The position numbers and the translations under genes are program-made. Below, piece after piece: positions 2,083 to 62,427 of a stretch of DNA of 64,000 bases. Position 1 is the first letter of the stretch. The number at the start of each line of letters is the position of its first letter. The stretch is from an uncultured Gemmatimonadales bacterium (GTDB taxonomy: Bacteria > Gemmatimonadota > Gemmatimonadetes > Gemmatimonadales > GWC2-71-9), in assembly GCA_963779755.1 (NCBI GenBank), contig CAVZZO010000003.1:896001-960000 (forward strand), written 5' to 3'. The notes beneath the pieces are model-generated. The model was given only the letters and a program-made list of their open reading frames with translations. It was not told where the DNA came from and made no database searches.

Positions 2083-4853
2083 CGCTGGCCCTGCTGGCCG
2101 CCTGCACCGCCCTCGCCGGTGCCCGCTCCGCGCACGCCCAGAGCACCGGCGACATTGCCGGCCAAGTCAGGGACCAGACCTCGCGCGAAGGCATTACGCT
2201 GGCGCGCATCGTGGTAGACGGCCGCATCCGGGCCGAAACCGATACCGCCGGGCGCTATCGCGCCCGCGGCATTCAGAGCGGCTGGCACCGGGTCACCGCC
2301 AACTTCATCGGCTATCGGGCGGTGGTCCGCGACAGTGTACTGATCCGCGCCGGCGCCACTACGCTGCTCGATTTCGACCTGCCACGCGCCCCGACCCCGC
2401 TGGAGCCCCTGGTGGTGCAGGCGGTGGACTCGATCCTCGACCCGCTTGCCACCGCGACCACCCAGCGGATCACCGCCGAGGACCTGCGGCGGCTGCCGGT
2501 GAGCTCGCTGGATGAGGCGCTCGCCTTGCAGGCGGGTGCCGTAGGCCAGAGCTATCGCGGCGGGCGGCTCGGCGAGCAGTCGTTCATTCTGGACGGCCTG
2601 GGAGTCAAGAACCAGCTCGACGCCTCCACCGGCACGCTGGGAATCCGGCTTCCACCGGAGATTCTGCAGGAGGCCTCCCTCACGACCAACGGATTTTCCG
2701 CCCGCTACGGCCAGGCGCTCTCCGGTCTGGTGAACGTGGTAACCCGCGACGGCGGGGAGCGCTGGAGCGGCCGCGCCGCCTATGAGACCGACCGCCCCTT
2801 CGGCAACGGATGGGACTACGGCCTGGACCGGATGCTGTTCGAGGCCGACGGGCCGCTGGTGGGGGGCGTGCGCGTCCTCGCGGTGGTGGACGCCAGCGGG
2901 CGGCTCGATGCCGATCCGGTCAACGCCCCCTCCTCCGGACTGCCGCGCGACCCGCGCACCGACGCTCCCTGGATGCTGCCGCACAACAGCGGCGAGCAGC
3001 TGGATTTCGGCGGCAAGCTCACCATTCCGCTGGGGAGCCGGCAGACCCTGCGCCTCTTCGGGCTGCGCTCGGTCAACCAGCGGTTGCTCTACGATCCGGC
3101 CTACAAGTACAACGAAGCCCTGGCCCCGGGGCAGCGGGTGGGCGGCACGCTGCTCAGCGCCCACCTGCAGAACTCGTTCACCCTGAGCGGTTCCCGCGCG
3201 TTTATTCTCGACCTCCGGCTGGGGTACTTCGGCCGCGAGTTCATCCGCGGCCCGCTGATCGACCAGCCGGACTACAAGTTCGGGGCGTTCACCGCCAGAC
3301 CCTTTCATTTCCTCGGGGAGACCATCGCCCGCAACCAGGATACGCTGGCGGCGATGAACGCCGTGCCCGGCTTCCACCCGCCGGTGGCCAGCAGTTCGAC
3401 GCCCTGGGGCGTTCCCGCTCTCTTCCTGGCGGGCGCGCCCCGCGGGGACCTCGGCTGGAACAAGTACCGCGAAATGCGCGGGCAGCTCGACGCCACCCTG
3501 GGACTCAGCCAGAACGTGGACCTGATGTTCGGGGGCCAGTTGGCGGGCGAGCGGGTGCAGACCTTCCAGCGGGTCCTGGCCTATCTCCCGGTGGGCGACA
3601 GCGTGCCGCCGCCCACGGCATCGAACTTCTCCCCCACGCTGTGGTCGGCCTACACCGAGGGCCAGATACGCGGAACGGATCTGGCGCTCACCGCCGGCGT
3701 CCGCGCCGACCATTTCAGCGGCGGGTCCGACCTGAACACGCCACAGACGGTCCGGGGCCGCTTCGGCGCCCGCACCACGCTCAGCCCCCGCTTTGCCGTG
3801 TCGACCGTCCTCAAAGGGGCGACGCTGGTCGCGAGCTTCGGCAAGTTCAGCCAGCCGCCCGATTTCCAGTATCTGGTGGATGCGGCGTTCGACGACACCA
3901 CCCGCACCGGCCGGTTCCGCCGCGGCAACCCCGATCTCGGGTTCGAGACCGCGACCCAGTACGAGCTGAGCCTGCGGATCCGGCCCACCAACGGCACCGC
4001 CATCCGGGTAGGCGTCTACTCCAAACGGCTGGACGGGCTGGTCGCGTCGGTGCCGCTGGGGGTGAATCCGGATTCGACCATCTTCGCGCTCACGGATTAC
4101 GGCAGCGTCCGCGGCCTGGAAATCCTGGCCGAGCGCCCGCTGCGGAACGGCTGGGGCGTTCGGGTGACCTATACCCTGCAGAAGGCGACGGCCACGTCGT
4201 CCAACGCCTTTCAGCTCCGGCAGTTCATCATCGATCCGGTGACGGGCGACACCACCGTCCCGGCGCGGGTGGAATTCCCGCTCGACTACGACCGGCGGCA
4301 CAGCCTCACCGGGATCCTCCAGTTGCAGAGCAATCCCGATTTCGGGCCCGGCATCGCGGGCGCGCGCCCCCTGGCCAATCTGGAATTCGCCTCCATCCTC
4401 CGGTACAACTCCGGCCTGCCCTTCAGCCGGGTCATCAACGACACCCTGGTGGGGCCGCCCAACGACCTGCGGCTGCCCGCCACCACCACCGTTGACATGC
4501 TGCTCCGGCGGCCGCTGCGGCTCTTCGGGACCTCGGCCGGGATCTACCTGGATATCCGCAACCTGTTCAACCACCGCAACCAGGTGGCCGCGCGCCGCGA
4601 TACCGGAACCCCGGGCCCCACCGAGGCGGTGCTGCAGAACAGCGCGGACTCGCTCTACCAGCTGCATCCGGAGCCCATTCCCTACGAGTCCCCCCGCTAT
4701 CGGGGATGGGCCGACCTGGACCACAACGGGTATGTGGATGGCCCCACCGAATTGAAGCCGCTGTACCTGGATGCCGCCCGCGACTTCACCCAGCCGCTGT
4801 TCGTGTACGGTCCGCCGCGTCAGGTGCGGCTGGGGGTGGAGGTGCTTTTCTAG
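2061..4853 (+). CDS. TonB-dependent outer-membrane receptor with N-terminal carboxypeptidase-regulatory-like domain
   Basis: Signal peptide; TG.IAG.VRD N-domain; plug motif GFSARYGQALSGLVNVVTR; GNPDL..E; NLFN; C-terminal Phe (GVEVLF). Confidence 0.9.
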   Translation: MALRSSLTLALLAACTALAGARSAHAQSTGDIAGQVRDQTSREGITLARIVVDGRIRAETDTAGRYRARGIQSGWHRVTANFIGYRAVVRDSVLIRAGATTLLDFDLPRAPTPLEPLVVQAVDSILDPLATATTQRITAEDLRRLPVSSLDEALALQAGAVGQSYRGGRLGEQSFILDGLGVKNQLDASTGTLGIRLPPEILQEASLTTNGFSARYGQALSGLVNVVTRDGGERWSGRAAYETDRPFGNGWDYGLDRMLFEADGPLVGGVRVLAVVDASGRLDADPVNAPSSGLPRDPRTDAPWMLPHNSGEQLDFGGKLTIPLGSRQTLRLFGLRSVNQRLLYDPAYKYNEALAPGQRVGGTLLSAHLQNSFTLSGSRAFILDLRLGYFGREFIRGPLIDQPDYKFGAFTARPFHFLGETIARNQDTLAAMNAVPGFHPPVASSSTPWGVPALFLAGAPRGDLGWNKYREMRGQLDATLGLSQNVDLMFGGQLAGERVQTFQRVLAYLPVGDSVPPPTASNFSPTLWSAYTEGQIRGTDLALTAGVRADHFSGGSDLNTPQTVRGRFGARTTLSPRFAVSTVLKGATLVASFGKFSQPPDFQYLVDAAFDDTTRTGRFRRGNPDLGFETATQYELSLRIRPTNGTAIRVGVYSKRLDGLVASVPLGVNPDSTIFALTDYGSVRGLEILAERPLRNGWGVRVTYTLQKATATSSNAFQLRQFIIDPVTGDTTVPARVEFPLDYDRRHSLTGILQLQSNPDFGPGIAGARPLANLEFASILRYNSGLPFSRVINDTLVGPPNDLRLPATTTVDMLLRRPLRLFGTSAGIYLDIRNLFNHRNQVAARRDTGTPGPTEAVLQNSADSLYQLHPEPIPYESPRYRGWADLDHNGYVDGPTELKPLYLDAARDFTQPLFVYGPPRQVRLGVEVLF

Positions 4854-5051
4854 GAATCAGGAATCAGGGAGCAGGAATCAGGATTCAGTATCCGGGGACC
4901 GAGGGAAATGATCAGGTATGGACGACAAGGGGACAGGTCGGGCATCCCGGCCTGCCCCCTGATTCCTGATTCCTGATTCCTGATTCCTGATTCCTGATTC
5001 CTGATTCCTGATTCCTGATTCCTGGTCCCTTGTTCCTTACCCCCGATTCCC
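4852..5051. repeat. Inverted heptamer tandem array (AGGAATC)n ... (GATTCCT)n
   Basis: 5 AGGAATC-like units from 4852; 9 perfect GATTCCT units at 4961-5023, then degenerate units. Confidence 0.95.
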
Positions 5052-5082
5052 TATCTTGTCCTATCCTTTCCCCGCCAACCCC

Positions 5083-60891: not shown

Positions 60892-62324
60892 TACCCCTCG
60901 CTCGCCATCTTGCGGGCCTTCTCGGCGGCTTCGTCGATGGTGCCCACCATGTAGAACGCCTGCTCCGGCAGCTCGTCGAATTCGCCCGAGAGCAGCCGCT
61001 CGAACCCGGTGATCGTCTCGTCCAGCTTCACGTAGATGCCGGGGAAGCCGGTGAACTGCTCGGCCACATGGAACGGCTGGGAGAGGAACCGCTGCAGCCG
61101 GCGGGCGCGCGCCACCACCAGCTTGTCTTCCTCGGACAGCTCGTCCATGCCCAGAATGGCGATGATATCCTGCAGAGCCTTGTAGCGCTGCAGGGTCCGC
61201 TGCACGCCCACCGCCACATCGTAGTGCCGCTGGCCGATGAACTGCGGATCGAGGATCCGGCTGGAGCTGTCCAGCGGATCCACTGCGGGGTAGATGCCCA
61301 GCTCGGCGATGGAGCGGGAGAGCACGACCGTCGCGTCCAGATGGGCGAAGGCCGTGGCCGGGGCCGGGTCGGTCAGGTCGTCGGCCGGCACATAGATGGC
61401 CTGCACCGAGGTGATCGAGCCCTTGGTGGTCGAGGTGATCCGCTCCTGCAGATCGCCCATCTCGGTCGCGAGGGTGGGCTGATAGCCCACGGCGCTGGGC
61501 ATCCGGCCCAGCAGGGCGGATACTTCCGAGCCGGCCTGGGTGAAGCGGAAGATGTTATCGATGAAGAGCAGCACGTCCTGGCCTTCGACGTCCCGGAAGT
61601 ACTCCGCCACGGTGAGGCCGCTGAGCCCCACCCGGAGGCGCGCGCCCGGCGGCTCGTTCATCTGGCCGTAGATCAGCGCCACGTTCTCCAGAATGTTCGC
61701 TTCCCGGAACTCGAGGTAGAGGTCGTTCCCTTCGCGAGTGCGCTCACCCACCCCGCAGAAGACCGACTTGCCGCCGTGGCTCTTCGCCACGTTGTTGATC
61801 AGCTCCTGGATCACCACCGTCTTGCCCACACCCGCGCCGCCGAAGAGGCCGATCTTGCCGCCCTTCACGAACGGGGCGATGAGATCGATGACCTTGATGC
61901 CCGTCTCGAAGATCTCGGTCTTGGGCTCCAGGTCGGTGAATTTCGGCGTGGCCCGGTGGATGGGCCAACGTTCGGCGTCGGCGGGAATGGGGGCGCCGCC
62001 GTCCACCGGCTCGCCCAGTACGTTCAGGATCCGCCCCAGGGCGGGCGGGCCGACCGGCACGGTGATGGCGCCGCCGGTGTCGCGCGCCTCCATGCCGCGG
62101 CTGACGCCGTCGGTGGTGCTCATGGCCACCGCGCGCACCTGGTTCTGGCCGATATGCTGCTGCACCTCGGCCACCAGCTTCACCGGTATGGGGCCGGTCG
62201 AGTCCTCGACCACCAGCGCGTTGTAGATCTCGGGCAGGTGCTCGGGCTCGAACTCCACGTCGAGCACGGGGCCGATCACCTGGACGATGCGTCCGATATT
62301 GGTTGCGGTGGCTGGTGCCGTCAT
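60891..62324 (-). CDS. atpD: ATP synthase F1 beta subunit
   Basis: GGAGVGKT Walker [25 protein letters not shown]. Confidence 0.99.
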
Positions 62325-62360
62325 GATGTCTTCCTTACAAGTGCTGGTTCGGGTTCCAGA

Positions 62361-62427
62361 CAGTGAGCGGTAAGCGGTAAGCAGTGAGCGGGCTGTTCCC
62401 GCTTACGGCTCACCGCTCACCGCTTAC
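62361..62427. repeat. Inverted heptamer array (CRGTRAG)4 ... (CGCTYAC)4 between atpG and atpD
   Basis: CAGTGAG CGGTAAG CGGTAAG CAGTGAG / CGCTTAC GGCTCAC CGCTCAC CGCTTAC; contains the atpG stop. Confidence 0.9.

What the first reader, a model, noticed from the sequence alone, without database searches (positions are those of the whole stretch)
4852..62427. Window-wide family of polarised, inverted short-period tandem arrays: many unit sequences, one architecture
Seen: about 14 intergenic arrays in 64 kb (4852, 6843, 9523, 15484, 27051, 32958, 34523, 35708, 37107, 39402, 52647, 55703, 56518, 62361). The units differ (AGGAATC, AGGACTG, AGGCGTR, GGGAAAN, GGGACAC, CGGTAAG), but the period is nearly always 7. 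Two-armed arrays always place the purine-rich arm first and the complementary pyrimidine-rich arm second, on either strand. They occur at gene 3' ends (co-directional or convergent junctions); I saw none in the divergent promoter regions. Established: heptamer tandem repeats (STRRs) occur in heterocystous cyanobacteria and REP hairpins in proteobacteria, but each of those is a fixed sequence family. Inference: period and fold-back geometry are conserved here rather than sequence. That points to a dedicated generating mechanism (slippage, template switching, or scars of an excised cassette) and/or an RNA-level role in stability, processing or termination. This is the best candidate for an undescribed system in the window.
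Basis: partly seen in the sequence, partly recalled or inferred. Interest (0 to 1): 0.82.

Follow-up and report, generated by a model that had tools for sequence, protein, structure and literature searches.

The report
Repeat-armed footprints of small selfish cassettes
The gaps between genes in this soil bacterium hold hundreds of inward-facing pairs of 7-11-base tandem repeats whose units match the repeats bracketing the genome's own small four-helix-bundle and nuclease-like genes, which points to a testable source for the long-unexplained 7-base repeats of bacteria.

Summary
Real and genome-wide: 516 gene gaps of this Gemmatimonadales genome carry arrays. The G-rich arm comes first and hugs stop codons, as published for Xanthomonas and Nostoc heptamers.

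The same brackets enclose the genome's four-helix-bundle (S23p/Avd-like) and GxxExxY genes; the scan noted this link before, in this genome and others. My tests add:
- Gene-less arrays use the units of the genome's own cassettes (145/660 exact vs 4±7; repeated in 34 relatives).
- Array density follows cassette content, and period follows protein clade.
- Orthologous junctions are empty, gene-filled, or hold other units.
- 35 arm pairs that barely pair are all still G-first.
- Spacers are unique; no target duplication, U-tract or reverse transcriptase was found.
- RNase III was not found in 121 family genomes, so IVS-type excision cannot be assumed.
- A residue-to-base code failed validation.

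Best reading: insertion footprints of selfish cassettes (0.5). The enzyme is unknown and the direction of causation is not shown.

The parts
4852..5038 (.). Two-armed element, period 7 (AGGAATC arm 4852-4888; complementary arm 4958-5038), starting at the stop codon of a TonB-dependent-receptor-like gene
6843..6890 (.). Decayed element (AGGACTG-type), overlapping the end of a sodium/solute symporter gene at a convergent junction
   Evidence: z -1.2
9523..9547 (.). Single G-rich arm, period 7 (AGGCGTG), overlapping a stop codon at a convergent junction; partner arm decayed
15485..15563 (.). Two-armed element, period 7 (GGGAAAN), imperfectly matched arms, convergent cydB / peptide transporter junction
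27051..27206 (.). Two-armed element of period 11; same unit family as the arm beside the resident four-helix-bundle gene at G000:C3:1257666
32248..32282 (.).
32958..33079 (.). Two-armed element, period 7 (AGGAATC), pdhC-lpd junction; 31 of 75 orthologous junctions hold arrays, of many other units
   Evidence: z -4.4
34523..34577 (.). Two-armed element, period 7 (AGGCGTR), downstream of lpd
   Evidence: z -5.2
35708..35782 (.). Two-armed degenerate element, period 7; left arm lies in the 3' end of lipB as called
   Evidence: z -3.2
37107..37190 (.). Long G-rich arm (AGGACTG x8) with a short partner; relatives carry a four-helix-bundle cassette between the MsrP-like and dipeptidase genes that flank this region
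39402..39500 (.). Decayed period-9 element (CAGATT type, the unit family found beside GxxExxY genes)
   Evidence: z -2.1
52646..52775 (.). Two-armed element, period 7, with an additional non-repetitive inner stem; convergent junction
   Evidence: z -11.8
55703..55823 (.). Two-armed element with mixed units (GGGACAC left; GATCCCT, GATTCCT and GTCCCTT right), 1-nt spacer
56518..56678 (.). Two-armed element, period 7 (GGGAAAY), right arm expanded to about 17 copies; convergent junction
62361..62428 (.). Two-armed element, period 7 (GCGGTRA), atpG-atpD junction; relatives are empty or carry 7-, 8- or 9-mer arrays of other units
   Evidence: z -8.0

Best explanation
The arrays are the arms, and mostly gene-less footprints, of small selfish cassettes: a four-helix-bundle gene (TIGR02436/PF05635) or a GxxExxY PD-(D/E)XK nuclease-like gene (TIGR04256) held between two inward-facing arrays of a 7-11-base unit. 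SHOWN: the layout; that gene-less arrays share units with the genome's own cassettes; that they are net insertions recurring at the same junctions, directly behind stop codons. INFERRED: the cassette protein recognises its own unit; cassettes insert repeatedly, often nested, at tolerant junctions; the gene is later deleted; slippage then lengthens or erases single arms, giving lone arms and mismatched pairs that keep G-first order. The arrays are then mostly neutral residue, not host signals. The inserting enzyme is not identified; the GxxExxY nuclease is the only catalytic candidate seen.
For: 7 of 8 four-helix-bundle genes of G000 have both arms, the eighth only the 3' arm. In relatives 78 of 110 loci have both arms (72 inverted-matched) and 51 of 83 in two other families (42 matched); by eye many of 30 GxxExxY loci have degenerate 8-10-mer arms (not counted). 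Gene-less arrays match own-cassette units exactly in 145 of 660 vs 4.1+-7.2 (max 41 of 200 draws) for cassette units of relatives (hand-picked version), and in 24 of 122 vs 1.3+-1.4 across 34 relatives. Array density 4.8 vs 0.6 per 20 kb in 10 cassette-rich vs 10 four-helix-bundle-free relatives (p 0.0009, kin not independent). Periods 8/9/11 cluster in one protein clade (12 changes vs 23.4 shuffled, 0 of 200; quick tree); unit distance tracks protein distance across genomes (r 0.17 and 0.19). One junction holds cassettes from different protein clades. In-frame elements lengthen a UvrA loop to 38 aa vs 8-18 in 12 orthologues and an AcrB-like loop to 41 vs 16-22 in 4 (only loci matching the flanking pattern: 12 of 24 and 4 of 8).
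Against: Spacers are unique (2 of 34 with a distant match) and not enriched for the cassette-leader motif (8 of 30 vs 31 of 150), so no remnant of cassette interior was found. None of 75 pdhC-lpd junctions is gene-filled although 31 hold arrays. Of 16 gene-less G000 junctions that are filled in relatives only 7 scored an array, against 692 of 3588 of all junctions, many of them too short to hold one: weak enrichment. No target-site duplication (2 of 71 vs 2.9). The protein-unit link is loose (nearest-protein unit distance 2.67 vs 3.14) and a residue-to-base code failed in 35 independent loci (p 0.30, 0.65). The unit match and the density correlation do not give direction: cassettes could instead be targeting or borrowing existing arrays.
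Confidence: 0.5

Rival explanations
1. Arms are written in trans, one per DNA end. At a break or nick behind a stop codon each 3' end is extended with G-rich units specified by a resident cassette (protein- or RNA-guided), and the ends are joined with a few local or random bases between. This gives G-arm then C-arm automatically, like a head-to-head telomere fusion, with no filled intermediate.
For: 102 of 105 neighbouring opposite-sense arm pairs are G-first; all 35 with at most 6 nt complementarity are G-first, and 21 have no hidden partner for either arm, some with spacers of 6-14 nt and different periods (reversed 9-mer family left out). Spacers are unique and unstructured. In-frame elements in UvrA and AcrB-like loops have unlike arms. 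The four-helix bundle is homologous to Avd (PF22296 at E 1e-5, below cut-off; homology stated in PMC10053308), a pentamer that binds RNA and serves a reverse transcriptase (bioRxiv 2023.10.23.563531).
Against: No reverse transcriptase (PF00078) in G000 or five array-rich relatives; Ku does not track arrays (absent in array-rich G075, present in two array-poor genomes). Gene-bearing cassettes are mostly matched (47 of 56; 5 chimeric). Nested arms exist (34 same-sense neighbours), so nesting plus arm loss explains chimeras without new chemistry. The reversed 9-mer family needs a separate account.
Confidence: 0.25
2. The arrays arise by host polymerase slippage and template switching, are kept where harmless, and the small genes merely land in or borrow existing hairpins.
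For: Arms vary widely in copy number, up to about 17 near-perfect copies; units change much faster than the proteins; lineage-wide lack of RNase III could make long hairpins harmless.
Against: Genomes without four-helix-bundle genes are nearly free of arrays although they too lack RNase III. Period follows protein clade even within one genome. The same unit recurs at dozens of unlinked sites, which local slippage cannot do. Template switching cannot make unlike arms.
Confidence: 0.15
3. The arrays are host RNA signals (terminators, processing or stability hairpins, or binding sites of a four-helix-bundle regulator) selected at gene ends.
For: Matched pairs fold very stably (median z -8.4, 65 of 67 under -3) and G-arms hug stop codons (114 of 171 within 25 nt, median 8). 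The same junctions are hit in many genomes.
Against: U-tract at only 6 ends among 67 pairs; RNase III not found; about half of arrays have no partner and a third of neighbouring pairs barely pair; 44 of 75 orthologous pdhC-lpd junctions score no array; elements also sit in protein loops.
Confidence: 0.1

Closest known systems
GGGAATC and GGGGA(C/T)T heptamer repeats of Xanthomonas and Nostoc (Rehm et al. 2015, PMC4692102); STRR of Calothrix (Mazel 1990, cited there, not read)
   Same: Intergenic G-rich heptamer arrays, often as convergent inverted pairs (70 and 75 cases), G-rich strand within 50 bp after stop codons, under-represented between divergent genes; GGGAATC is also a unit here.
   Different: One unit family per organism and a G-quadruplex reading there; here 188 unit variants, periods 7/8/9/11, many without G3 tracts, chimeric pairs, and a link to cassette genes that the passages I read do not mention.
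ORF-bearing 23S rRNA intervening sequence (IVS) of Coxiella (Warrier et al. 2016, PMC4990558)
   Same: An S23p/four-helix-bundle ORF in the loop of terminal inverted repeats, with tandem heptamers of variable number on the 5' side.
   Different: IVS lies in 23S rRNA and is cut out by RNase III; here the cassettes lie between or inside protein genes, most copies have no gene, and RNase III was not found in the lineage.
TAACTGA repeats of Beggiatoaceae, Cyanobacteria and Bacteroidetes (MacGregor 2015, PMC4679880)
   Same: Heptamer arrays oriented with respect to start and stop codons; the author suggests that a repeat-binding protein may be the mobile element.
   Different: Single unit, almost no inverted pairs reported, candidate binders S1/Csp/Csr; no hit for S23 or four-helix terms in the text.
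MITEs, REP/REPIN and foldback-type elements (recalled)
   Same: Short gene-less inverted elements in intergenic DNA with gene-bearing relatives.
   Different: Copies do not share spacers, no target-site duplication, arms may be unlike, no transposase in the bracket.
Avd of diversity-generating retroelements (bioRxiv 10.1101/2023.10.23.563531; PMC10053308)
   Same: Homologous pentameric four-helix bundle; closest solved relative is the Xcc0516 pentamer 2GSC (E 6e-23).
   Different: No reverse transcriptase found in G000 or five relatives; no template/variable repeat pair looked for or seen.

Membership tests
Heptameric long SSR / STRR-type repeats | Over-represented intergenic tandem arrays of period 7 | tested here: met
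   359 vs 0-2 in controls; periods 8, 9, 11 are also over-represented
Heptameric long SSR / STRR-type repeats | G-rich strand just after stop codons; depleted between divergent genes | tested here: met
   114 of 171 within 25 nt of a stop; 63 of 412 vs 422 of 1446
Heptameric long SSR / STRR-type repeats | One fixed unit family per organism | tested here: not met
   188 unit variants in many families
ORF-bearing 23S rRNA IVS | S23p/four-helix-bundle ORF inside terminal inverted repeats | tested here: met
   7 of 8 genes in G000, PF05635 above cut-off for relatives; none of the 14 window elements holds the gene
ORF-bearing 23S rRNA IVS | Located in a 23S rRNA gene | tested here: not met
   No Rfam match in the window; the 8 resident genes have protein-gene, tRNA-like or IS-like flanks
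ORF-bearing 23S rRNA IVS | Excision by RNase III | tested here: not met
   RNase III not found in G000 or 121 family genomes; cleavage itself not testable
MITE / non-autonomous transposon | Near-identical dispersed copies including the interior | tested here: not met
   2 of 34 spacers with a distant match
MITE / non-autonomous transposon | Target-site duplication | tested here: not met
   2 of 71 vs 2.9 shuffled; no strain-level empty allele was available
Intrinsic (Rho-independent) terminator | Hairpin followed by a U-tract | tested here: not met
   4 right ends and 2 left ends among 67 pairs
Diversity-generating retroelement | Reverse transcriptase with Avd | tested here: not met
   PF00078 absent from G000 and 5 relatives
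REP/REPIN with RAYT | GTAG/CGTC-tagged palindrome and RAYT transposase | not tested
   No RAYT search run; arms are tandem units, unlike REP as recalled

The most novel reading that the evidence does not exclude
Four-helix-bundle (Avd-like) and GxxExxY cassettes drive an undescribed repeat-writing mobility system: each cassette specifies a 7-11-base unit that is added to DNA ends with the G-rich strand running toward the junction, telomere-like, so that matched, lone and chimeric arm pairs are written de novo behind stop codons and into protein loops, without RNase III, a resident reverse transcriptase or target duplication. This would be the source of the heptamer repeats of cyanobacteria, xanthomonads and many other bacteria.
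Probability: 0.25. Interest if true: 0.9.

Novelty: new variant of a known kind. Interest (0 to 1): 0.62.

Why it matters
Heptamer repeats have been known in bacteria since 1990 without an origin, and the S23p/four-helix-bundle and GxxExxY families have no assigned function in the papers I could read. A genome-specific match between dispersed repeat units and resident cassette arms turns both into one bench question: does the protein bind, move or write its own unit? The chimeric pairs and the missing RNase III rule out the simplest hairpin and IVS readings for this lineage and say what the assay must distinguish. Practically, the arrays break assemblies and add false residues or ORFs at gene ends in Gemmatimonadota annotation (inference).

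Tried and rejected
Residue-to-base code: two strong covariations in 64 family loci (z 6.9) were clade-bound and failed in 35 loci of other families (p 0.30, 0.65). Stop codon in register with the unit: 55 of 141 fell to 13 of 80, chance level, for arrays starting after the stop. A shared Y-R-R core in the units follows largely from purine richness (my reasoning); not claimed. Cassette-leader motif in empty spacers: not enriched. Structured spacers and target duplications: none. Other cargo genes between matched arms in G000: only four-helix-bundle and GxxExxY genes were recognisable by eye. Ku: no relation to array density in 5 genomes. Rfam: no match. Sequencing runs: no RNA holder listed; the one DNA run gave short contigs and none of the 8 pieces shown spans an array, which is uninformative. 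Plasmid blastn of atpD did not identify the organism. The careful tree did not finish; the quick tree has 62 of 102 branches open and one very long row. Mrazek 2007 was not held. No structure or complex prediction was run because the pentamer is solved (2GSC).
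Full report
SETTING. The window is G000:C3:896001-960000 of a 4.23-Mb, about 69% GC genome. The closest lpd relatives are titled Gemmatimonadales/Gemmatimonadota. Genes were called with my own dicodon model (3658 genes), which misses atypical small genes, so junction classes carry some error.

OBSERVATION. All 14 sites are present. My detector finds 359/147/143/31 intergenic arrays of period 7/8/9/11 against 0-2 each in three Markov controls; 516 gene gaps hold arrays, with 188 unit variants. Period 7 is 355 of 747 merged arrays, plus 43 of period 14. Of 675 arrays, 320 have a reverse-complement partner on one side within 150 nt, 5 on both and 350 none (control 95 of 675); the purine arm is first in 273 of 320, and one 9-mer family is reversed, 23 vs 4. 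Divergent gaps are depleted, not free: 63 of 412 vs 91 of 236 convergent and 331 of 1210 co-directional. G-rich arms lie within 25 nt of a stop codon in 114 of 171 cases (median 8 nt) but of a start codon in 54 of 164 (median 47); the other strand mirrors this, 108 of 145 vs 59 of 167. Matched pairs fold strongly (median z -8.4) but lack U-tracts (6 ends among 67 pairs).

LINK TO CASSETTE GENES. Some pairs 400-550 nt apart enclose small atypical ORFs. G000 has 8 four-helix-bundle genes (TIGR02436) and 12 GxxExxY hits, 6 of them full-length (TIGR04256). Seven of the 8 have both arms and one only the 3' arm; three GxxExxY genes have clear 8- or 9-mer arms and three lie in a duplicated block with decayed arms. 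In the family, 101 of 121 genomes have the four-helix-bundle gene and 45 of 121 GxxExxY. I examined 110 of the 436 four-helix-bundle matches, taken from the top of the list: 78 have both arms, 72 inverted-matched, periods 7:56, 8:17, 9:4 and one mixed. In 83 loci of two other families 51 have both arms and 42 are matched. The proteins are PF05635 and PF13366; the closest solved structure is the Xcc0516 pentamer.

TESTS OF THE LINK. (a) Units of 660 gene-less G000 arrays match the automatically extracted arm units of its 8 cassettes exactly in 145 cases and within one mismatch in 357, against 4.1+-7.2 and 64+-31 for period-matched cassette sets from relatives. In 34 relatives, using only the cassettes I had fetched, 24 of 122 arrays match exactly vs 1.3+-1.4. 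(b) Around atpG, 10 genomes with 7-11 four-helix-bundle genes have 4.8 arrays per 20 kb and 10 with none have 0.6 (p 0.0009; kin are not independent). (c) On a quick tree of 105 proteins (13 fetched loci gave no usable row), periods need 12 changes vs 23.4 shuffled, with periods 8/9/11 mostly in one clade; cassettes at one junction come from different clades. Unit distance follows protein distance weakly (r 0.17, 0 of 1000; r 0.19, 3 of 1000). (d) A residue-to-base code suggested was clade-bound and failed validation. None of these tests gives the direction of causation.

ORTHOLOGOUS SITES. At atpG-atpD (30 loci including G000) and pdhC-lpd (20 loci) relatives are empty or carry 7-, 8- or 9-mer arrays of other units in the same layout. 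Among 80 further loci, 31 of 75 pdhC-lpd junctions scored an array and none held a cassette gene; the pdhA-pdhB and pdhB-pdhC junctions scored 9 of 57 and 11 of 62 (not inspected). Four-helix-bundle genes occurred in 3 of 80 loci, all between the MsrP-like and dipeptidase genes that flank window 36423-37199 (L286 repeats L054); the window has a different 145-aa ORF plus an array there. 33 filled loci map to 18 G000 junctions: 2 filled, 7 of the other 16 with a scored array vs 692 of 3588 overall, a weak enrichment. Elements are net insertions: UvrA loop 38 aa vs 8-18 in the 12 of 24 loci that matched the flanking pattern, AcrB-like loop 41 vs 16-22 in 4 of 8.

WHAT THEY ARE NOT. Not copied whole: 2 of 34 spacers match elsewhere, and there is no target duplication. 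Not selected hairpins throughout: of 105 neighbouring opposite-sense pairs (reversed family left out) 102 are G-first, 35 share at most 6 complementary nt and all 35 are G-first, 21 with no hidden partner for either arm. Not RNase III-excised IVSs here: RNase III was not found in G000 or in 121 family genomes (control 9 of 14), nor in 134 genomes of eight related families, while 15 of 16 genomes of four more distant families have it; the brackets occur in one of those families too. Not a resident retroelement: no PF00078 in G000 or 5 array-rich relatives.

MECHANISM. I favour footprints of selfish cassettes (0.5): repeated, nested insertion behind stop codons, loss of the gene, slippage of the arms. 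Its weak points are the unique spacers without cassette remnants and the absence of filled pdhC-lpd alleles. The strongest rival (0.25) is writing of each arm in trans at two DNA ends, which explains chimeras and fixed polarity directly but has no candidate polymerase. Host slippage alone (0.15) and host RNA signals (0.10) fit worse. The telomere-fusion, MITE, REP and IS comparisons are recalled, not from a call.

LITERATURE. Seen: PMC4692102 (abstract, introduction, passages, section 13); PMC4679880 (abstract, passages); PMC4990558, PMC6749651, PMC3071783, PMC10053308, PMC10910872 and bioRxiv 10.1101/2023.10.23.563531 (passages only). Mrazek 2007 and Mazel 1990 are known only through Rehm's citations. 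No supplements were read; gene tables there could mention the cassette genes. Searches found no paper linking dispersed heptamer arrays to four-helix-bundle or GxxExxY genes outside the Coxiella IVS (one search listed only 25 of 4588 loose hits); one search listed four papers and the one I opened does not report RNase III loss in Gemmatimonadota in its text (its figure was not visible). The library lacks most subscription journals.

EARLIER SCAN NOTES. I reached the cassette link, before the first look-up. Notes report the same design in this and other genomes; they are not independent support. They gave me the IVS comparison and the residue-code idea, both tested here. A word search for chimeric polarised arms returned nothing.

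VERDICT. A real, lineage-wide, multi-unit variant of known heptamer repeats, tied by several controlled tests to two uncharacterised cassette gene families; mechanism unproven. Interest 0.62.

Noticed in passing
G000 and relatives: RNase III was not found in 121 family genomes or in 134 genomes of eight related Gemmatimonadota families, but is present in 15 of 16 genomes of four more distant families: an apparent lineage-wide loss.
   Followed up: partly
G000, e.g. C1:503460, C3:155413, C3:486711: A 9-mer family (CTCGACCCY) with reversed polarity, C-rich arm first in 23 of 27, short spacers and no cargo gene seen.
   Followed up: partly
Four-helix-bundle loci L051-L160: A -10-like TANNNT lies 5-8 nt before the ATG in 14 of 58 cassette genes vs 173 of 2084 host genes, suggesting leaderless transcripts that would carry only the 3' arm.
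   Followed up: partly
G000:C3:1489117-1506472: Block with three full-length and several partial GxxExxY copies in local duplications.
   Followed up: no
G000:C1:709354-710800, C1:695761, C3:1688612: Period-9 elements amplified inside longer local tandem repeats of about 230-280 nt.
   Followed up: no
G000:C1:22539 and 22790: A G-arm and a C-arm inserted in frame about 250 nt apart in a DNA-polymerase-III-alpha-like gene (name from recall), enclosing what reads as native coding sequence.
   Followed up: partly
G000:C3:1584181-1585424: Two different four-helix-bundle cassettes (8-mer and 7-mer arms) flank one small CrcB-like gene (name from recall).
   Followed up: no
window 36667-37104: 145-aa ORF without NCBIfam or Pfam match at a junction where relatives carry a four-helix-bundle cassette.
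   Followed up: partly
L214, L234, L235, L238, L240 (pdhC-lpd): 500-750-nt inserts, at least four of which read like signal-peptide-bearing ORFs, between pdhC and lpd in five relatives.
   Followed up: no
G000:C1:1934870; L043, L211, L229, L239: A separate non-tandem palindromic repeat (GTCACCCTGAGCG type) shares the same junctions.
   Followed up: no
window 56011-56517: Thioredoxin-like gene matching a (seleno)lipoprotein family below cut-off; the longer ORF from 55852 was not examined.
   Followed up: no
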